Of a stretch of 43,009 nt of DNA, positions 16,363 to 37,789 are shown one piece after another. The stretch's first letter is position 1; each line of letters starts with the position of its first letter. The notes under the pieces were generated by a model. The model searched no databases. It was not told where the DNA came from and saw only the letters and a list, made by a program, of their open reading frames with translations. The stretch is from Acidobacteriota bacterium (GTDB lineage: Bacteria > Acidobacteriota > Vicinamibacteria > Fen-336). The stretch spans positions 1-43,009 of the forward strand of contig DAINRN010000001.1 in NCBI GenBank assembly GCA_036741815.1, read 5' to 3'. A program made the position numbers and the translations under genes.

Positions 16363-18402
16363 TTACATGCCAGGTTGCGGCAGCATCGCCTGGGGCACGG
16401 TGGGGGTCCCTGGCACCCCGCCCACCAGGCCCGGTTGCATCCCCTCGGCCGCATTGGGAGGCGGCGGCGGCAGCACCGGCAGCCCCGCCCCTGGCTCCAC
16501 CGGCAGCCCCGCGCCCCCTGGCAACCCCATGGGCTCCTGGCCAGGGACGCCACCGCTGGGTGGCATGGCGGTGAGGGCTTGACGGATCGCCTCCTCATCG
16601 CGTATATCTAGCTTCTGTAGGACCTTGTTAATGCGATCCCCCTTCACTCTCGGGTCCTGTTCTATGTCATAGACTAACCATTCCTCCCTATTTTCATCGT
16701 AGTTGCCACCACTGTCCTCTATGACCTCGCGTGGCGTCTTGATACGCAGTCGTAAGGCTTCACCAGCACTACGTAGCTGGATCAGGTCATTGGTGGGCGT
16801 CATGGGCTCGAGCTTCACGTGGTAGGTATGGTTGCCGTGGAGGTCCTCGGGGCCGAGCCGCAGCCAGCCGCGCCCTGGCGCTCGCCGACGGGCGGTGGCC
16901 GGCAGCTCGCCGAGTACGTAGACAGCTTCACACAGGTCATGCTCTATCAGCCAGCTCTCAAAGCCTACTCTACCGCTCAGCATAAACTCTAAGTTGTCAA
17001 TGATGGGGTCCCACAGCAATCTGGCCAAATGAGACGCTTGATTGAGCGCATATCCGCTCTCATCTCCGCTCACTACCCCCTGTACAACCGCAGGAAGGGC
17101 AAGGTTCAGCGTCTCGCGCGCAAACGCAATCATCTTCTCGAGGTCGATGCCCCCCTTGCCCAGCTCGATCGGGTCCAAGTCCCACGGCACAATCGACCCT
17201 GGCGTGATCTTGAACTTCTGCCCGTCCTGGCTCTCCACCCCTGGCGCCAGCGCCATCACCCCGTCGGCCAGGCCCAGGCCCGGCTGCGGCTTGCGCTTGT
17301 ACGCGGTGTACGCATAGCGGTAGGCTGTCTGCGTTTGCATGGTTATGAACGAGTTTAGCATCTCGTACATCCGCAGGAAGCCGAAGATGAGCGACAATCC
17401 CTGGCTCTCGACTCTTCTCGAGGATGTAGATACCCCAAAACAATGGAAATACGGCCCTCGGAGGGTGTTCGTCTCGCGTATGCCGTAGTTATGCTTCCAT
17501 TCCTTGAGGGTGTGCCCGTCGCCCCGCAGGAAGTTGTCCCCTGGCCCGCAGATGCACGTGCGGCAATACTCCGAGTCCCACACCTCATACACCCTGAGCG
17601 TCAGGGTGTTGGACCCCTTCATGCTCGAGCGCCAGTGCTCGACACTCACGCCCATCGCGGCCGGCACCACCTTGCCGTTCTTGGAGAGCCCGATCTCGCC
17701 CTTGTACCGCTCCAGGCAGGTATAGTAATCAACGTCTTTCACCTCTACTATGCACGTATAACCATCCTCACCCTGCACATAGAAGAAGTTTTCAGGTGGT
17801 ACGTCCATACTGGCGATCGGGTACGGAATGTTGCGCTTGTACTCCTCCGTCAGCTTGGTATAATCCGCATCGGACTGCTCGTAGCTGTAGTCGTGCTCCC
17901 GCTCGACGCGGTCATACAGCTCGCGCCTGGTCGTCCCCGCGTACTCGTAATACTCACCCCAGGCCCGCCGCGCGCGGGGGATCGTCTTGGCCACCGCCTC
18001 GCCCTTCGCCACCTGGCTGTACACGAGCTGGCGGGTCAGCCGCCGCTGGCTCTCGTGCTGCTGGCGCTCCCAGGCCGCCTCGAACCCCTTCTCGCGCAAG
18101 GTCTGGTTCCGCAGGCCCGTATCCCCGATCGTAACGGGATCAAAGTGGATCTTGGGCGGATTGACGCTCAGTGCAGCCGCAATCGTATTGACGGTGTGTA
18201 ATGCGTGCGGAAGTCGCACTTCTAACGTAGTATCCCGATATTCGTCGGGAATCTCCACCTCACGATCCATAAAGATGATCTCATCCGCGTATTGCATGAG
18301 CTGGTTGCGCGCCTGGAACGGGGCCATCACGTCCCTGACCAACCCCAACAAGTCCTTGGTGTCGCCGGCTCGGCCGGTGTAGCCCCGTCTCGCCTCAGCC
18401 AC
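16363..18402 (-). CDS. putative portal protein, 679 aa
   Basis: It is the largest ORF between the terminase and head genes. The size and a Pro/Gly-rich C-terminal tail fit large portal proteins. I recognised no diagnostic motif by eye. Confidence 0.5.
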   Translation of the reverse strand: MAEARRGYTGRAGDTKDLLGLVRDVMAPFQARNQLMQYADEIIFMDREVEIPDEYRDTTLEVRLPHALHTVNTIAAALSVNPPKIHFDPVTIGDTGLRNQTLREKGFEAAWERQQHESQRRLTRQLVYSQVAKGEAVAKTIPRARRAWGEYYEYAGTTRRELYDRVEREHDYSYEQSDADYTKLTEEYKRNIPYPIASMDVPPENFFYVQGEDGYTCIVEVKDVDYYTCLERYKGEIGLSKNGKVVPAAMGVSVEHWRSSMKGSNTLTLRVYEVWDSEYCRTCICGPGDNFLRGDGHTLKEWKHNYGIRETNTLRGPYFHCFGVSTSSRRVESQGLSLIFGFLRMYEMLNSFITMQTQTAYRYAYTAYKRKPQPGLGLADGVMALAPGVESQDGQKFKITPGSIVPWDLDPIELGKGGIDLEKMIAFARETLNLALPAVVQGVVSGDESGYALNQASHLARLLWDPIIDNLEFMLSGRVGFESWLIEHDLCEAVYVLGELPATARRRAPGRGWLRLGPEDLHGNHTYHVKLEPMTPTNDLIQLRSAGEALRLRIKTPREVIEDSGGNYDENREEWLVYDIEQDPRVKGDRINKVLQKLDIRDEEAIRQALTAMPPSGGVPGQEPMGLPGGAGLPVEPGAGLPVLPPPPPNAAEGMQPGLVGGVPGTPTVPQAMLPQPGM

Positions 18403-32067: not shown

Positions 32068-32312
32068 GTCGTCGTCTCCATCTCCTTCTTCACGATGCGG
32101 ATACAACGGGAAGCCCCGTGGGGTCCCCGCACGATGTGCCCGCTCTGCTCGAGCTGCTCGAGGTGGCGGGCCACACTGGACTTGCTGGCGTAGCCGCGGC
32201 CCGCCTGGATCTCTTCGTAGCTCGGCATCCAGCCGTGCCGCTTTTGGAAGGCCGCCAGGAACGCCAGCACGTGGCGGGTTTCATCCTCGGGATACAGACG
32301 GTGCTCACCCAT
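32064..32312 (-). CDS. LexA-N-terminal-like winged-helix DNA-binding protein, 82 aa
   Basis: SYEEIQAGRGYASKSSVARHLEQLEQSGHI resembles the LexA DNA-binding domain. There is no peptidase domain. Confidence 0.6.
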   Translation of the reverse strand: MGEHRLYPEDETRHVLAFLAAFQKRHGWMPSYEEIQAGRGYASKSSVARHLEQLEQSGHIVRGPHGASRCIRIVKKEMETTT

Positions 32313-33240
32313 CGCTTCTCACCTCCTTTGCGTTCAGCCGTAGGTTGGGGGACCCCTTGGGCCATTCCACCAGGGTACTCATCTCGTGGATGCGCCAGGC
32401 GATGCGCGGCCCTAAGCGGCGCTGGCTCCCCAGCTCCAGCACCGTCAGGTTACTCGTGTAGATGGTGGCGCGGTGGCGCTCGTGGCGATAGTCGATCAGC
32501 TCATAGAACTTGGCGGCCGCCCAGCCGTCAGCACCATCCTTCCCCTGCTCGGCGCCGAGGTCGTCAAGGAGCAGGAGCTTGGTTCGCTGGGCCGCCCCCA
32601 TCACGTCGGCCTCGGTGATGCCGGAGCTGGCGTCGTAGGTCTGCCGCAGCCGCGCCAGCAGCACCGGCGCCTTGATGAAGAGCGCATCGCAGTGGTCGCG
32701 CTCCATGCGCTGCCGCAGGGCGCAGACGGCCATGGAAGTCTTCCCCACGCCCCACTCCCCCAGGAGCAGGAGGCCCGGCGTGGACGGCGCCACCGCCCAG
32801 GCCATCACCTTCTTCACCAGGGGCTCGGTGAGGGGATGGGAGGGATAGGTTGCCCAGGTAAGGTCGGCGTAGTGAACGAGCTGCTCATCCCCCGACCCGA
32901 ACAGGCGGTTGAGGCGGCGCTCCTGGGCGAGCCCACAGTCCGGACAGTCCACCGTCTTCCCGTACTGTGGATGGTCGGGGTAGAGGGTCCGATCCACCAC
33001 CAGCCCCACGCCGAAGCATCTCGAGCATCTCGGCTCGACTGGGGAGGGGTCGCTCCAAATCTGCGAGTCGTTGCTGCTCGAGCTTGATCTCGGTGGCTCG
33101 TCCCAGCTCGATCTGGTCGGCGCTGAGGGGTCGTCCATCGCGCCCGAGCGGTACGCCTGGATCTGCTCCCACACCGTCTTGGGGAGCGCCTGCTCGAACA
33201 CGCTGCCCAGCGGCGCCATTGGTTGCTCGTCGCGCGGCAT
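32305..33240 (-). CDS. DnaC/IstB-like AAA+ helicase loader with an N-terminal CxxC...CxxC zinc module, 311 aa
   Basis: Walker A is GEWGVGKTS, Walker B is LLLLDDLGAEQ and sensor I is IYTSN. The zinc module is CSRC...CPDC. The ATG at 33238-33240 follows AAGGAGG. Confidence 0.8.
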   Translation of the reverse strand: MPRDEQPMAPLGSVFEQALPKTVWEQIQAYRSGAMDDPSAPTRSSWDEPPRSSSSSNDSQIWSDPSPVEPRCSRCFGVGLVVDRTLYPDHPQYGKTVDCPDCGLAQERRLNRLFGSGDEQLVHYADLTWATYPSHPLTEPLVKKVMAWAVAPSTPGLLLLGEWGVGKTSMAVCALRQRMERDHCDALFIKAPVLLARLRQTYDASSGITEADVMGAAQRTKLLLLDDLGAEQGKDGADGWAAAKFYELIDYRHERHRATIYTSNLTVLELGSQRRLGPRIAWRIHEMSTLVEWPKGSPNLRLNAKEVRSDG

Positions 33241-33967
33241 AGCGGCCTCCTTGCCGTAGGTCCTGGCGGTCCCCCTCGAGGGCATTCAACAGCCGGCCGG
33301 TGGAGCAGGGCTTGTGCTTCTCCTCGCACCAGGCGCGGATCTTCATGGCCACCACCTCCACGTCGAGGTCGGCCTGGTAGCCGGCCACCTTGGCGTAGAA
33401 GCGGGCCGTGGGCTCGTAGCCCTTCGCGCCGGCCAGTACGTCCTGAAAGCCTTCCAGGCCGGCCGGCACCTCCAGCGCGAGCGGGGGCGCCGCCGCGCGC
33501 TCTCCGGTTCCATGACCGGTTCTATTGACCGGTTCTTGATCTACTGGGGTGGCAACGGTGTCACCGTTTGTGACCGCAGGTGTCACCGTTTGTGGACCGG
33601 AGGTGTCACCCTTTGTGACCGGAGGTGTCACCCTTTGGGCGAGTCCTTCCTCTAATAGGGTGGCCACCCTGTCACCCTTTGGCCGGTACTCATCCACCCA
33701 GTTGTCGAGCACCAGCTCCCAGTGGGTGGCGCAGCCGCGGCCACCCCGACGGTGGGCCACCGGCCGGATGAGCCCGCGCTGCTCCAGGGCACGGAACCCT
33801 CGCTGGATGGTGCGCTCACTCTTGCCCAGCTCAGCGGCCAGCAGAGCGACCCCCGGCCGGCAGCTCTGCCCGTCGTTGTTGGCATGGCGCGCCATGCCAA
33901 TCAGGATCACCGTCGCACTGTCGGGGAGATGGAGGTTCAGCACGCGGTCCTGTAATCGGTAGCTCAT
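32885..33967 (-). CDS. replication initiator (lambda O-like role): N-terminal wHTH, iteron-bearing linker, C-terminal domain. The last ~118 codons overlap the loader gene out of frame.
   Basis: The N-terminal wHTH is LIGMARHANNDGQSCRPGVALLAAELGKSERTIQRGFRALEQRGLI. There is no in-frame stop until 32885. Third-position G/C collapses after ~33240. Confidence 0.6.
   Translation of the reverse strand: MSYRLQDRVLNLHLPDSATVILIGMARHANNDGQSCRPGVALLAAELGKSERTIQRGFRALEQRGLIRPVAHRRGGRGCATHWELVLDNWVDEYRPKGDRVATLLEEGLAQRVTPPVTKGDTSGPQTVTPAVTNGDTVATPVDQEPVNRTGHGTGERAAAPPLALEVPAGLEGFQDVLAGAKGYEPTARFYAKVAGYQADLDVEVVAMKIRAWCEEKHKPCSTGRLLNALEGDRQDLRQGGRYAARRATNGAAGQRVRAGAPQDGVGADPGVPLGRDGRPLSADQIELGRATEIKLEQQRLADLERPLPSRAEMLEMLRRGAGGGSDPLPRPSTVREDGGLSGLWARPGAPPQPPVRVGG
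33504..33536. repeat. short direct repeats (CCGGTTC x3; GACCGGTTCT x2) flanking the iteron array
   Basis: CCGGTTC occurs at 33504-33510. GACCGGTTCT occurs at 33514-33523 and 33527-33536. This is the locally least GC-rich stretch. Confidence 0.6.
33557..33686. repeat. iteron array: four tandem 22-23-bp repeats plus one partial copy (candidate origin of replication)
   Basis: The unit is GGTGTCACC(G/C)TTTGTG(G)ACCG(C/G)A, at 33557-33578, 33579-33601, 33602-33623 and 33624-33645 (3' half diverged). A partial copy lies at 33669-33686. Each unit carries a GTCAC/GTGAC dyad. Confidence 0.7.
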
Positions 33968-34167
33968 GACACACCTCCCAGCGGGGGGATGTGGAGCTGG
34001 AAGATGACTCGCCCATCCTCGTCGTGGATGGAGAGATACCCCCGCGCGACCAAGTCTTGGAGGGAGCGCCGCACCGCCTCCTCGGTCAAGCCCGTCTCGC
34101 TCGCGAGCTGCGCCACGTGCGGGAAGCTCAACGGTCCCAGGCGGGGCAAAAAGTCAGACGCACTCAA
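33964..34167 (-). CDS. small winged-helix DNA-binding protein, 67 aa
   Basis: VAQLASETGLTEEAVRRSLQDLVARGYL. ATGA coupling at both ends. Confidence 0.55.
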   Translation of the reverse strand: MSASDFLPRLGPLSFPHVAQLASETGLTEEAVRRSLQDLVARGYLSIHDEDGRVIFQLHIPPLGGVS

Positions 34168-34433
34168 AGCAGTACCTCCTTGCGATAGTCGGCGATCAGC
34201 CGCAGGGCGAGGGGCGCTGGAAGCAGGGAGTAGTCACCGCACGCGGCGCACGAGGTCCAGACATTGGCCCGCGTGGCGGTCTCGACATAGCGGAGGCAGA
34301 TGGTGCAGTGGGGACAGCGACCCACCACCGGACCGAGCTGCAAGAAGGCCAGGGCGGCCGGCGACACGTAGAACCGGCGCATAGTGGCCAGGTCGGTGTC
34401 TTTTCGCGTTGTAGGGGGATCTGCTAGACTCAC
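34164..34433 (-). CDS. zinc-ribbon protein, 89 aa
   Basis: CPHCTIC...CAACG. The GTG at 34431-34433 follows GGAGGTAATCCCAC. An internal ATG (M18) is an alternative start. Confidence 0.5.
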   Translation of the reverse strand: MSLADPPTTRKDTDLATMRRFYVSPAALAFLQLGPVVGRCPHCTICLRYVETATRANVWTSCAACGDYSLLPAPLALRLIADYRKEVLL

Positions 34434-34436
34434 GTG

Positions 34437-34514
34437 GGATTACCTCCACGAATTTCGAGGGATGCGGCGGATTACCTCCGCGAATCTTCGGGATTCACCT
34501 CTCTCGTCTTGAGG
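34437..34514 (-). repeat. three tandem SD-like repeats (GGAGGTRAATCC-containing units) in the 5' leader of ORF 34164-34433
   Basis: Plus-strand units: ggattacctccacgaatttcgagg (34437-34460), ggattacctccgcgaatcttcgg (34469-34491) and ggattcacctctctcgtcttgagg (34491-34514). Confidence 0.7.
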
Positions 34515-34545
34515 CGGCCGACCTTCTCGCCGGAGGTCGGCCGCC
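34513..34545 (-). terminator. perfect 11-bp GC hairpin just after the first early gene (tR1-like position)
   Basis: GGCGGCCGACC-N11-GGTCGGCCGCC. It starts 12 nt downstream of the stop at 34558. There is no clear U-tract on the minus strand; TTTAT follows on the plus strand. Confidence 0.5.
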
Positions 34546-34557
34546 ACGTTTATAGGG

Positions 34558-34860
34558 TCAGCGCGTGAGGGCCAGGGCCAGCGTGCTCGCCTCTGCTTCC
34601 TCGTCACTCGTCGGGTCCTCCTGGGTCATAGCGGCCGCCAGGCGCTCGGCGAGCGCGCGGCGACGGTCGAGCGCGGCCGCCTCGAGCAGAATGGGCGGGG
34701 ACTCCAACCCCCGCTCGATGAGCGTGTTGACCACCGAGCTGGCGTCCCAGCCGGTGCGGCGCATCCAGGTCTGCACGCCAGGGCGATGCGCGGCGCGGAG
34801 ACGAATGGGCGTGAACTCGCGGGGCACGCGGCGCCCGCGAGGTGGATCGGTGGGCTCCAA
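34558..34860 (-). CDS. first early gene: RHH-like, Cro-position DNA-binding protein, 100 aa
   Basis: The TTG at 34858-34860 follows GGAGGATG. The pattern FTPIRLRAAHRPGVQTWMRRTGWDASSVVNTLIERGL is RHH-like. It is divergent from the Xre repressor. Confidence 0.5.
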   Translation of the reverse strand: MEPTDPPRGRRVPREFTPIRLRAAHRPGVQTWMRRTGWDASSVVNTLIERGLESPPILLEAAALDRRRALAERLAAAMTQEDPTSDEEAEASTLALALTR

Positions 34861-34913
34861 AACATCCTCCAGTGACCGTCATACGTCTACACCTGACAGA
34901 AGAACACCCAGCC

Positions 34914-34942
34914 AGTGTACGCCGATCAGTGGCGGCGAACAA
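34914..34942 (-). promoter_or_regulatory. early promoter candidate (TTGTTC-17 nt-TACACT), related in sequence to promoter copies A and B
   Basis: The -10 is at 34914-34919 and the -35 is at 34937-34942. A GTGTAGAC motif (34885-34892) lies between the -10 and the SD. Confidence 0.5.
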
Positions 34943-35037
34943 GGCCGGTTGTAGCGGGCAGGCTGGGGAATCGGGTCACCGGTTGTGTCAGATGGCACCG
35001 TGACACCGGCCAGGGTGTATGATGGCAGCGGACCCAC

Positions 35038-35061
35038 CTACACCCGTAGACGAGTGTAGAC
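35038..35061. promoter_or_regulatory. operator-like dyad CTACAC-N10-GTGTAG(AC) upstream of the repressor gene
   Basis: ctacacccgtagacgagtgtagac. The 8-mer GTGTAGAC recurs in the opposite orientation at 34885-34892. A TATGAT -10-like box is at 35018-35023, but the -35 is poor. Confidence 0.4.
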
Positions 35062-35092
35062 ACCCCTGCGGGTCCAGAATCGGAGGGAAGGT

Positions 35093-35614
35093 TTGACGGC
35101 AAACGTAGCCCAGTATCCCCGTCGGCTCTGCGCGCGTCATGGAGTGAATCAAGCAGGCTTTGCCCGCGGGCTGGGCGTGGACCCTTCGCGGGTGAACAAG
35201 TGGATGCGCCCGACGAAGCCCTATCGCCCCAGTCCCGAAAAGTGTCTACAGATCGCCGCGTACTTCGGCGTCGAGCCCGCCGAGTTTCTCACCGAGTGCG
35301 GGTACGATCCCGCGCTCCATCTGCTCGAGGATGGCTCCCAACGGGTCTATGTCCAAGAGGCACCGGCGGCGGACCTCCACCTCGAGGACTGCGTGGTGAT
35401 CTACCGCGAGATGCTGCGCCCCCTCGACCGCGCGCAGCGCCAGGACCTCACCGAGATCAACACCCTGCTGAAGCACCTGTTGCTCCACCCGCGCGTCGGC
35501 CCCGTGGTCGCCGACACCCCGATTGACCGCGTGAAGCGGGTCAAAACGCCGCTCCCGCAGCCGGTGACCAGTGCGTCCGTTCGTGAGCGGGAGCTGGTCA
35601 ACTCCGCCCCCTAA
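35093..35614 (+). CDS. Xre/CI-type repressor candidate, 173 aa
   Basis: The TTG start follows GGAGGGAAGG. The HTH is LCARHGVNQAGFARGLGVDPSRVNKWMR...LQIAAYFGVEPAEF. It is divergent from the early operon. Confidence 0.7.
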   Translation: MTANVAQYPRRLCARHGVNQAGFARGLGVDPSRVNKWMRPTKPYRPSPEKCLQIAAYFGVEPAEFLTECGYDPALHLLEDGSQRVYVQEAPAADLHLEDCVVIYREMLRPLDRAQRQDLTEINTLLKHLLLHPRVGPVVADTPIDRVKRVKTPLPQPVTSASVRERELVNSAP

Positions 35615-37622: not shown

Positions 37623-37789
37623 CGGCCACCTCCCTTCAAGGGCTCGAGCTGCTCCCGACTGATGGCCACGCGGGGCTCGAGCTGCTCGCGCGCGATCGCC
37701 ACCAACGGCTCGAGGATGATCCCCGCCGGCACGTAGGGCGGCGCCTCCACCAGCGCACCCCCGGCCCCGAACAGCAGGAGGAGCGTCAT
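37619..37789 (-). CDS. small protein, 56 aa, containing a 33-bp tandem repeat
   Basis: The ATG at 37787-37789 forms an ATGA with the upstream stop. It has a hydrophobic N-terminus (MTLLLLFGAGGALV) and the repeat EPLVAIAREQLEPRVAISREQLEP. Confidence 0.45.
   Translation of the reverse strand: MTLLLLFGAGGALVEAPPYVPAGIILEPLVAIAREQLEPRVAISREQLEPLKGGGR

What the first reader, a model, noticed from the sequence alone, without database searches (positions are those of the whole stretch)
33504..33686. Iteron array embedded in the replication-initiator gene: candidate phage origin
Seen in sequence:
- Four head-to-tail 22-23-bp repeats GGTGTCACC(G/C)TTTGTG(G)ACCG(C/G)A lie at 33557-33645, with a partial fifth copy at 33669-33686.
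- Each repeat contains a GTCAC...GTGAC dyad.
- Three CCGGTTC / two GACCGGTTCT repeats lie directly adjacent (33504-33536), in the locally least GC-rich stretch.
- All of these sit inside the linker of the wHTH initiator ORF, where they translate as ...VTPPVTKGDTSGPQTVTPAVTNGDTVATPV....
- A similar sequence (GGTCACCGGTTGTGTCA, 34974-34990) lies in the lysis/lysogeny switch region.

Established precedent: the lambda ori consists of iterons inside gene O.

Inference: this is the ori bound by the initiator's own N-terminal domain, and the DnaC-like loader gene follows it. The iteron-like site in the switch region hints at coupling between replication and early transcription.
Basis: partly seen in the sequence, partly recalled or inferred. 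Interest (0 to 1): 0.6.

Follow-up and report, generated by a model that had tools for sequence, protein, structure and literature searches.

The report
Replication origin inside phage initiator gene
The repeats are real and are almost certainly this phage's replication origin, written into the flexible middle of its own initiator gene as in phage lambda; it is an ordinary, well-preserved member of a very widespread origin type.

Summary
Five same-strand copies of TGTCACCSTTTG lie at 33559-33681, spaced 22/23/22/44 bp, and occur nowhere else in the 43-kb phage contig or the 4-Mb MAG. Next to them are three 12/13-mers (33502-35). All sit in the predicted disordered linker (aa ~91-171) of an HTH_36, O-like initiator. 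A DnaC/IstB-like loader gene follows.

The repeats are DNA-level, not peptide repeats:
- The same word is read in two frames (KGD / RVT).
- GC3 falls to 0.52 against 0.85-0.96 in the flanks.
- Relatives at 30-48% identity keep the DNA word at the same place, and identical residues use the same codon far more often there (82-85% vs 48-50%).
- A three-iteron DNA pattern finds 68 viral contigs, 65 of them inside such initiator genes. A scrambled control finds none.
- Bifidobacterium phage PMBT6 has the same layout, unannotated.

The 12/13-mers are a variant of GAACCRTCA repeats that are conserved across initiators with many different iterons. Earlier agents of this scan reported that motif on other genomes.

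The "iteron-like" site in the switch region is not beyond chance window-wide (P≈0.16).

Verdict: a lambda-type origin inside the initiator gene, a new member of a known kind. Binding and origin firing remain untested.

The parts
33698..33967 (-). Codes for the N-terminal winged-helix (HTH_36) domain of the initiator, aa 1-90. This is the presumed iteron-binding domain.
   Evidence: Pfam HTH_36 at aa 13-67, E 6e-13. PHROG replication initiation / O-like families. AF2 pLDDT 89-98 over aa 1-90. Foldseek matches winged-helix proteins only.
33455..33697 (-). Codes for the linker, aa ~91-171, which carries all the origin elements.
   Evidence: The AF2 model shows no secondary structure here, pLDDT 45-66. 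GC3 is 0.52 for aa 93-155 (the part holding the repeats), against 0.85 (N-domain) and 0.96 (C part).
33668..33689 (-). Iteron 5 (distal, half-site): CAAAGGGTGACAGG on the gene strand, read as P-K-G-D-R.
   Evidence: Exact core match at 33670-33681. It lies 44 bp (2 x 22) from iteron 4. It is part of a 39-nt repeat, 77% identical to 33532-33570.
33624..33645 (-). Iteron 4 (right arm degenerate), read as Q-R-V-T-P.
33602..33623 (-). Iteron 3 (full dyad GTCACCCTTTGTGAC), read as T-K-G-D-T.
33579..33601 (-). Iteron 2 (23 bp, one extra G in the right arm), read as Q-T-V-T-P.
33557..33578 (-). Iteron 1 (full dyad, nearest the 12/13-mers), read as T-N-G-D-T.
33533..33550 (-). Junction box ACCCCAGTAGATCAAGAA (gene strand), which contains the GATC. 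CCCCAGTAG and TCA within it are invariant (with A or G between) in the four closest relatives, including those with a different iteron.
   Evidence: DNA alignment A4. The 18-mer is identical in L021.
33502..33535 (-). Three 12/13-mers, GAACCGGTCAATA / GAACCGGTCATG / GAACCGGAG, also read in two frames (E-P-V, R-T-G, G-T-G). This is the presumed unwinding or helicase-entry element.
   Evidence: TRF period 13. Window 33506-33546 is among the 0.6% least stable 40-bp windows. The homologous GAACCRTCA triplets occur downstream of the iterons only: 28/71 downstream, 0/71 upstream, control 7/330. They are widespread in initiator genes.
33475..33504 (-). GAGAG plus a G+C-only tract (GAGAGCGCGCGGCGGCGCCCCCGCTCGCGC) following the 12/13-mers. 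A GAGAG / GCGCGC tract recurs at this place in many relatives.
   Evidence: Seen. Its hairpin is no more stable than shuffles (z 0.87), so its role is open.
33248..33454 (-). Codes for the C-terminal helical part of the initiator (aa 172-240), the presumed loader/helicase-recruiting domain.
   Evidence: AF2 helices at 172-240, low confidence. This part aligns to the C-terminal parts of P0011, P0013 and P0027. The frame looks coding only down to about 33290.
32305..33285 (-). DnaC/IstB-like AAA+ helicase-loader gene directly downstream.
   Evidence: phrog_50, E 2.6e-33; IstB_IS21, E 6.6e-8. The same gene order occurs in all five closest relatives, except that L023's downstream gene runs off the contig and is unannotated.
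34972..34987 (+). Iteron-like site in the divergent early-promoter region. Doubtful as part of the system.
   Evidence: 12/13 match. PWM score 14.3 bits against shuffle maxima of 11.9 +/- 2.2. P(>=1 such hit in 43 kb) = 0.157.

Best explanation
This is the phage's origin of theta-type replication, embedded in the linker-coding part of its own initiator gene, as ori-lambda is embedded in gene O.

Proposed mechanism (steps 1-4 are inferred by analogy; step 5 is shown by the sequences):
1. The initiator's N-terminal winged-helix domain binds the five iterons. Their core on the gene strand is CAAASGGTGACA. Their spacing of 22/23/22/44 bp is about two helical turns, so all sites lie on one face of the DNA.
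2. This builds an O-some-like complex that stresses the DNA.
3. The neighbouring low-stability segment opens. That segment consists of the junction box plus three 12/13-mers (33502-33550).
4. The C-terminal part of the initiator, together with the DnaC/IstB-like loader encoded next door, places the host replicative helicase there.
5. Because GGTGAC gives a TGA stop in one of the three frames, the iterons can only sit in the other two. This forces the alternating 22/23-bp spacing and produces the alternating KGD(T) / RVT(P) peptides.

Shown here:
- The array exists, is unique, is constrained at the DNA level and lies in the linker.
- The layout is conserved family-wide.
- The loader gene is consistently adjacent.
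For: 1. Uniqueness and phasing: five exact cores on one strand, chance expectation 0.15. The only such array in 4.06 Mb. The best tandem repeat in the window.
2. The repeat is in the DNA, not the peptide. The period is 22-23 bp, and the core is read as K/N-G-D in one frame and Q-R/T-V-T in another. GC3 is 0.52 here against 0.85/0.96 in the flanks.
3. Relatives at 30-48% protein identity carry 4-6 copies of the same or a related DNA word at the same place in the gene, 21-23 bp apart. In L018, L020 and L023 the word is read in all three frames.
4. At identical residues the same codon is used in 85% and 82% of cases in the origin part, against 50% and 48% in the N-domain (WIN vs L021 and L022; Fisher P 0.007 and 0.015; six relatives pooled P 3e-6).
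5. The pattern GGGTGACACC-N10-13-GGGTGAC-N14-17-GGTGAC matches 68 viral contigs, and 65 of the matches lie in an ORF with the HTH_36-like N-domain, a median of 31 aa after it. A scrambled-core control gives 0 matches. In 71 distinct arrays the spacings 22 (72x) and 23 (55x) outnumber the in-frame 21 (32x), and 65 of 71 arrays use two frames.
6. Three or more GAACCNTCA-like 10-14-nt-spaced repeats follow the iterons in 28/71 arrays and precede them in 0/71; the control is 7/330.
7. Window 33506-33546 is among the 0.6% least stable 40-bp windows.
8. The AF2 model shows a confident wHTH at aa 1-90 and an unstructured stretch at aa 91-171.
9. A DnaC/IstB-like gene follows the initiator here and in the closest relatives.
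10. Precedent: the lambda and Stx-phage origin (iterons plus an AT-rich tract) lies in the middle of gene O (PMC7466680). The RK2 and oriC unwinding elements are built of 13-mers next to the initiator sites (PMC4980987).
Against: - There is no experimental or read-depth evidence.
- GC skew shows nothing at 33.5 kb.
- The 12/13-mer segment is only relatively unstable (about 48% GC) and is not the stability minimum of the contig.
- That the initiator itself binds the iterons is an inference. Positions R52, Q55 and R56 of the predicted recognition helix are nearly invariant across relatives whose iterons differ, so the specificity determinants are unknown.
- No TTWTNCACA DnaA box occurs in the window, so any role of host DnaA is open.
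Confidence: 0.8

Rival explanations
1. The repeats are DNA sites with a function other than initiation. Candidates are autoregulatory operators, copy-number control by handcuffing in a plasmid-like prophage, a centromere for the ParB-like protein, or a packaging site. The true origin would lie elsewhere.
For: - DNA-level conservation by itself does not say which function is served.
- The contig has a ParB-like DUF6551 gene.
- Iterons of plasmids also serve in control.
Against: - The arrays are tied one-to-one to the initiator gene: 65/68 viral matches.
- The ParB-like gene was seen next to the module only here and in L019.
- The fixed order of iterons, then 11-13-mers, then a GC tract, with fixed polarity, is the anatomy of an origin.
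- No other repeat array exists in the contig.
- Control functions would add to an origin role rather than replace it.
Confidence: 0.12
2. The repeats are a peptide repeat of the linker, selected at the protein level, and the DNA similarity is only a by-product.
For: Homologues share KGD(T) and ERVT(P) motifs in the linker.
Against: - Both motifs are translations of one DNA word in two frames, and the period is not a multiple of three.
- In L018, L020 and L023 one word gives three different peptides.
- Synonymous sites are more conserved than in the folded domain, despite the use of rare A/T-ending codons.
- In 19 of 87 in-gene arrays, the strand that matches the search pattern is the antisense strand of the gene.
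Confidence: 0.02
3. The array is a recent, functionless slippage expansion in a tolerant, disordered linker.
For: Disordered linkers tolerate insertions. Copy number varies between relatives, from 3 to 9.
Against: - The same word, spacing and position persist across Actinomycetota, Pseudomonadota, Myxococcota, Chloroflexota, Planctomycetota and others.
- They also persist in a cultured phage.
- The copies within this array differ at several positions outside a conserved core.
Confidence: 0.03

Closest known systems
ori-lambda inside gene O of phage lambda and the Stx phages (also P22 gene 18 and SPP1 gene 38, from my own knowledge)
   Same: - Direct repeats with internal dyad symmetry lie in the middle of the initiator gene, between an N-terminal DNA-binding domain and a C-terminal recruiting domain.
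- A less stable tract lies on the downstream side.
- The helicase-loading gene comes next (PMC7466680).
- HHpred places an HTH_36 domain in lambda O (PMC5509034).
   Different: - There was no Pfam match to the lambda O family itself, only HTH_36 and PHROG 'O-like' families at about 1e-8.
- The iteron sequence is unrelated to lambda's as I recall it.
- Instead of a plain AT-rich tract, the unwinding side is three sequence-specific 12/13-mers plus a GC tract.
- The loader is a DnaC/IstB-type AAA+ protein, not lambda P.
The HTH_36-initiator origin family with GAACCRTCA 11-13-mers. It is seen here in IMG/VR contigs, prophages of many phyla and Bifidobacterium phage PMBT6. Earlier agents of this scan noted it on other genomes.
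   Same: - The same order of elements: wHTH domain, 4-6 iterons 21-23 bp apart, three 11-13-mers, then GAGAG and a GC tract.
- The same GGGTGACACC iteron core and the 22/23/22 spacing, as in PMBT6 and 71 distinct arrays.
   Different: - The window's 12/13-mer carries one extra G (GAACCGGTCA rather than GAACCRTCA).
- Two of its five iterons are half-sites.
- The initiator ORF runs about 400 nt into the loader gene, where relatives overlap by 4-41 nt.
Iteron plasmid origins such as RK2 oriV (iterons + four 13-mers in the unwinding element + DnaA boxes)
   Same: Iterons about two turns apart lie beside repeated 13-mers that in RK2 are essential for opening and are bound as single strands by the initiator (PMC4980987).
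   Different: - Here the origin lies inside the initiator gene.
- No DnaA box consensus is found.
- No homologue was found in 72,556 plasmid records at E 1e-5.

Membership tests
Lambda-type origin embedded in the initiator gene | Three or more same-orientation initiator-site repeats, spaced about two helical turns apart, inside the initiator's coding sequence | tested here: met
   Five cores on one strand at 22/23/22/44 bp inside ORF 32885-33967.
Lambda-type origin embedded in the initiator gene | The repeats lie between the N-terminal DNA-binding domain and the C-terminal domain | tested here: met
   HTH_36 at aa 13-67. The AF2 model has a wHTH at aa 1-90, an unstructured stretch at aa 91-171 and helices at 172-240. 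The repeats occupy aa 93-155.
Lambda-type origin embedded in the initiator gene | An easily melted tract directly beside the repeats | tested here: met
   33506-33546 has z = 2.9 and is among the 0.6% least stable 40-bp windows. It is about 48% GC in a 70% GC contig, but is not the global minimum.
Lambda-type origin embedded in the initiator gene | A helicase-loading gene immediately downstream | tested here: met
   DnaC/IstB-like, phrog_50 E 2.6e-33. The order is conserved in relatives. It is not homologous to lambda P.
Lambda-type origin embedded in the initiator gene | The initiator binds the repeats and replication starts there | not testable with these tools
   This needs EMSA/footprinting and origin mapping. 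The read-depth route was closed and GC skew is uninformative.
Lambda O protein family (sequence membership) | A significant match to the lambda O family models | tested here: inconclusive
   Pfam gives only HTH_36. The PHROG 'replication initiation O-like' families 678, 391 and 8540 match the N-domain at 4e-8 to 1e-3.
HTH_36 initiator / GAACCRTCA-12-mer origin family | Iterons 21-23 bp apart, shortly after the N-terminal HTH_36 domain and conserved as DNA | tested here: met
HTH_36 initiator / GAACCRTCA-12-mer origin family | Three or more GAACCRTCA-type 11-13-mers downstream of the iterons | tested here: met
   The window has GAACCGGTCAATA / GAACCGGTCATG / GAACCGGAG, a variant with one extra G. 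The family pattern is shown.
Iteron-plasmid origin (RK2 oriV type) | DnaA boxes beside the iterons, and an origin outside the rep gene | tested here: not met
   No TTWTNCACA in the window. The origin lies inside the gene. No plasmid homologue was found.

The most novel reading that the evidence does not exclude
The conserved part of this origin type may be the GAACCRTCA 11-13-mer triplet with its GAGAG/GC tract, not the iterons. That triplet is kept across phages of many phyla whose iterons differ completely.

It could be a dedicated opening or helicase-entry element, read (perhaps as single-stranded DNA) by an invariant part of the initiator or by the loader. The variable iterons would then only supply specificity. 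If so, the near-invariant R-x-x-Q-R of the 'recognition' helix may not be what reads the iterons.

A lesser possibility is that the iteron-like site at 34972-34987 lets the initiator repress its own early promoter.
Probability: 0.3. Interest if true: 0.6.

Novelty: new member of a known kind. Interest (0 to 1): 0.35.

Why it matters
- It gives this uncultured phage a concrete, testable origin of replication.
- It explains the odd KGDT/RVTP 'motifs' seen in the linkers of many HTH_36 phage initiators: they are the shadow of a DNA signal read in two frames.
- It explains the alternating 22/23-bp spacing, which follows from avoiding the TGA frame of GGTGAC.
- In practice, the iteron + 12-mer signature can be used to annotate origins in many phage and prophage genomes, where the gene is at present labelled only 'HTH domain protein'. 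Cultured phage PMBT6 is one such case.
- It does not change what is known about how such origins work.

Tried and rejected
- **Close relatives by single-protein search:** none found. Alignment A1 was too divergent for locus finding.
- **BLAST of the origin region:** searches of this origin against phages, and of two related origin regions variously against phages, plasmids and E. coli genomes, gave no match. A protein search of plasmids also gave no match.
- **GC skew:** extremes at 14.7 and 24.0 kb, nothing at the array.
- **Alternative origin in the AT-richest DNA (16.6-18.3 kb):** it is one 679-aa ORF without repeat arrays.
- **tRNAs:** none.
- **Promoter scan of 33400-35200:** nothing. The 'terminator' it calls at 33504-33519 is just the first 13-mer pair.
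- **Hairpin of the GC tract:** no better than shuffles.
- **Solved structures:** only generic winged helices.
- **The small wHTH gene upstream (33964-34167):** it is not conserved in relatives and is not a paralogue of the initiator N-domain.
- **Literature:** searches for the motif, for PMBT6 and for HTH_36 with iterons found no description of this origin type. The library is partial.
- **Switch-site coupling:** rejected as unsupported.

Full report
**Setting**

The window is the whole contig C1 of a fragmented MAG (43,009 bp, 69.8% GC). It is a phage or prophage. It encodes a large terminase, a major head protein, a Mom-like protein and an endolysin, and has a divergent repressor/early-operon switch. 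I did not determine the host.

**The observation**

Tandem Repeats Finder gives a period-22 array at 33557-33637 (3.6 copies, score 132, the best in the window). It also gives a period-13 array at 33504-33536.

The 12-nt core TGTCACCSTTTG occurs five times exactly, at 33559, 33581, 33604, 33626 and 33670. All copies are on one strand and none lie elsewhere. Chance expectation is 0.15. Nothing like the array exists elsewhere in the 4.06-Mb assembly.

The spacing is 22, 23, 22 and 44 bp, about two (or four) helical turns, so all sites face one side of the DNA. Copies 1 and 3 carry the full GTCAC-N5-GTGAC dyad. Copy 2 has an extra base. Copies 4 and 5 are half-sites.

**Where it lies**

The array is inside ORF 32885-33967 (minus strand).
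- The N-terminus is an HTH_36 winged helix and matches PHROG replication-initiator / O-like families.
- An AlphaFold model built on 37 relatives gives a confident domain for aa 1-90, no structure for aa ~91-171, and low-confidence helices at 172-240.
- The next gene is a DnaC/IstB-like loader.

**DNA signal or peptide repeat?**

Four results bear on it.
1. The period is not a multiple of three. On the gene strand the core CAAASGGTGACA is read alternately as (P/T)-K/N-G-D and Q-R/T-V-T.
2. Third-position G+C drops to 0.52 in the origin part, against 0.85 and 0.96 on either side. Codon choice is therefore being overridden.
3. An exhaustive profile search finds 1,493 homologues. The closer ones share 'KGD(T)' and 'ERVT(P)' in their linkers. 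These are the two legal translations of GGGTGAC(ACC).
4. The DNA of relatives confirms this.
   - L021 and L022 (43-44% identity) have 4-6 copies of AAAGGGTGACACC, 21-23 bp apart, in two frames.
   - L018 and L020 have ACCCCGTCGTTT, and L023 has AAACCCCGTCAC. Each is read in three frames as three different peptides.
   - At residues identical between the window and L021 or L022, the same codon is used in 85% or 82% of cases in the origin part, against 50% or 48% in the folded N-domain (P 0.007 and 0.015; six relatives pooled 3e-6).

**Family-wide test**

I searched with the three-iteron pattern GGGTGACACC-N10-13-GGGTGAC-N14-17-GGTGAC.
- It matches 68 IMG/VR contigs and 74 contigs of named genomes. 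A scrambled-core control matches none of the viral contigs.
- 65 of the 68 viral matches and 22 of the 74 genomic matches lie in an ORF whose N-terminus is the same HTH_36-like domain, a median of 31 aa behind it.
- Hosts of the in-gene arrays include Micromonospora, Mycobacterium, Bifidobacterium, Collinsella, Stenotrophomonas, Sphingopyxis, Rhizobiaceae, Myxococcota, Anaerolineales, Phycisphaeraceae and Ignavibacteriales.
- In 71 distinct arrays the spacings 22 (72x) and 23 (55x) dominate over the in-frame 21 (32x). 65 arrays use two frames. The commonest pattern, 22-23-22 in frames 2-0-2-0, is exactly that of the window.

The reason is simple. GGTGAC read in the third frame is GG-TGA-C, which contains a stop. 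Copies can therefore only alternate between the other two frames, and that requires steps of 22 and 23.

The cultured Bifidobacterium phage PMBT6 has the same layout in a gene annotated only as 'HTH domain-containing protein', with no origin annotated in the region fetched around that gene.

**The second element**

The CCGGTTC repeats are, on the gene strand, GAACCGGTCAATA / GAACCGGTCATG / GAACCGGAG. They too are read in two frames.
- Relatives have GTCAT(A)GAAACG x3 (L018, L020) or GATC-containing 11-12-mers (L021, L022) at the same place. A junction box (CCCCAGTAG-R-TCA) precedes them and is invariant even where the iterons differ.
- Among the 71 arrays, 28 have three or more such 10-14-nt-spaced repeats within 170 nt downstream. 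None have them upstream. Control segments give 7/330.
- Notes of earlier agents of this scan on other genomes (e1-374933, e1-020466, e1-432419, e1-3281902) say that a 12-mer beside the iterons is conserved across phyla. I tested this. GAACCRTC x3 matches more than 116 viral contigs.
- Of the 68 contigs with enough upstream sequence, 48 carry it inside an HTH_36-like initiator ORF. Most of these in-gene cases have arrays mostly about 22 bp apart upstream, but the repeated words are very varied. Only 5 of 63 distinct upstream stretches are of the GTGAC type.
- So the 11-13-mers are the conserved part and the iterons are the variable, specificity-giving part. The window's version has one extra G.
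- The segment 33506-33546 is among the 0.6% least stable 40-bp windows, though it is not the minimum of the contig.
- A GAGAG/GC-only tract follows, here and in many relatives. Its hairpin is unremarkable.

**The switch-region site**

GTCACCGGTTGTG at 34975-34987 is real.
- A position-weight matrix built from the five copies ranks it as the best non-array hit only in its 16-bp form (14.3 bits). Shuffle maxima average 11.9 +/- 2.2.
- In 300 first-order Markov simulations, 15.7% of 43-kb sequences hold a hit at least that strong.
- It would be notable only if the 232-bp switch had been named in advance (0.0009 expected there).
- I treat the proposed coupling as unsupported, not as excluded.

**Mechanism and comparison**

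The anatomy matches the lambda and Stx-phage origin: iterons plus a meltable tract in the middle of gene O (PMC7466680). The repeated 12/13-mers recall the 13-mer unwinding elements of oriC and RK2. In RK2 these are essential and are bound as single strands by the initiator (PMC4980987). HHpred work by others places an HTH_36 domain in lambda O (PMC5509034).

I therefore read the region as an origin. The initiator binds the iterons, the 12/13-mer segment opens, and the C-terminal part with the DnaC-like loader brings in the host helicase. Binding, opening and firing are all inferred.

Points against or still open:
- GC skew is uninformative.
- No DnaA box is present.
- R52, Q55 and R56 of the predicted recognition helix are nearly invariant although the iterons vary.

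**Verdict**

This is a new member of a known kind, and of an origin family that this scan has already met on other DNA. It is of modest interest.

Noticed in passing
window 32885-33285: The initiator ORF has no stop until 32885, so it overlaps the loader gene out of frame by about 400 nt. Third-position G+C shows that only the loader frame looks coding beyond about 33290. In the relatives with a called loader gene (L018-L022) the two genes overlap by only 4-41 nt; in L023 the next gene starts 22 nt downstream. This points to a lost stop codon, an assembly indel or a real overprinted tail.
   Followed up: partly
window 32950-33060 (loader aa ~85-120): The DnaC/IstB-like loader has an N-terminal C-x2-C ... 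C-x2-C motif (PRCSRCFG...VDCPDCG). It looks like a zinc ribbon and recalls the helicase-binding N-domain of DnaI-type loaders (from my own knowledge).
   Followed up: no
window 16363-18402: A single 679-aa ORF has much lower G+C (about 44-50% locally) than the 70% contig. It holds all of the least stable DNA of the window. It contains no repeat arrays, and I did not test its function.
   Followed up: partly
L021:1180-1215 and L022:2290-2340: In two close relatives the short repeats after the iterons are GATC-containing 11-12-mers (GATCAAGAAAA / GATCAGAGAAAA). They are reminiscent of the GATC-bearing 13-mers of E. coli oriC. The window keeps a single GATC at 33538-33541.
   Followed up: no
L036, L039, L060, L072, L086 (genome contigs of Conexibacteraceae, Oerskovia, Flavobacteriales and a Proteobacteria MAG): 52 of the 74 genomic matches to the three-iteron pattern are not inside an HTH_36 initiator ORF. 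Several are long tandem arrays of 22-24-bp units with the same GGGTGAC core and no frame open across them on the matching strand. They may be origins of other replicons, or unrelated repeats.
   Followed up: no
L063:4253-4706 and L046:3607-3873: An HTH_36-like N-domain lies just upstream of an iteron array, but no frame is open across the array. These may be frameshifted or split initiator genes.
   Followed up: no
window 37637-37714: The second-best tandem repeat of the window has period 33 and 2.4 copies (score 93). It lies inside a minus-strand ORF just downstream of the endolysin gene.
   Followed up: no
window 33964-34167: A 67-aa winged-helix protein is encoded immediately upstream of the initiator, with a 4-nt overlap. 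It has weak HTH_36 / DnaD_N / RP-C matches. It is not similar to the small genes at the same position in L018 and L021, nor to the initiator's own N-domain.
   Followed up: yes
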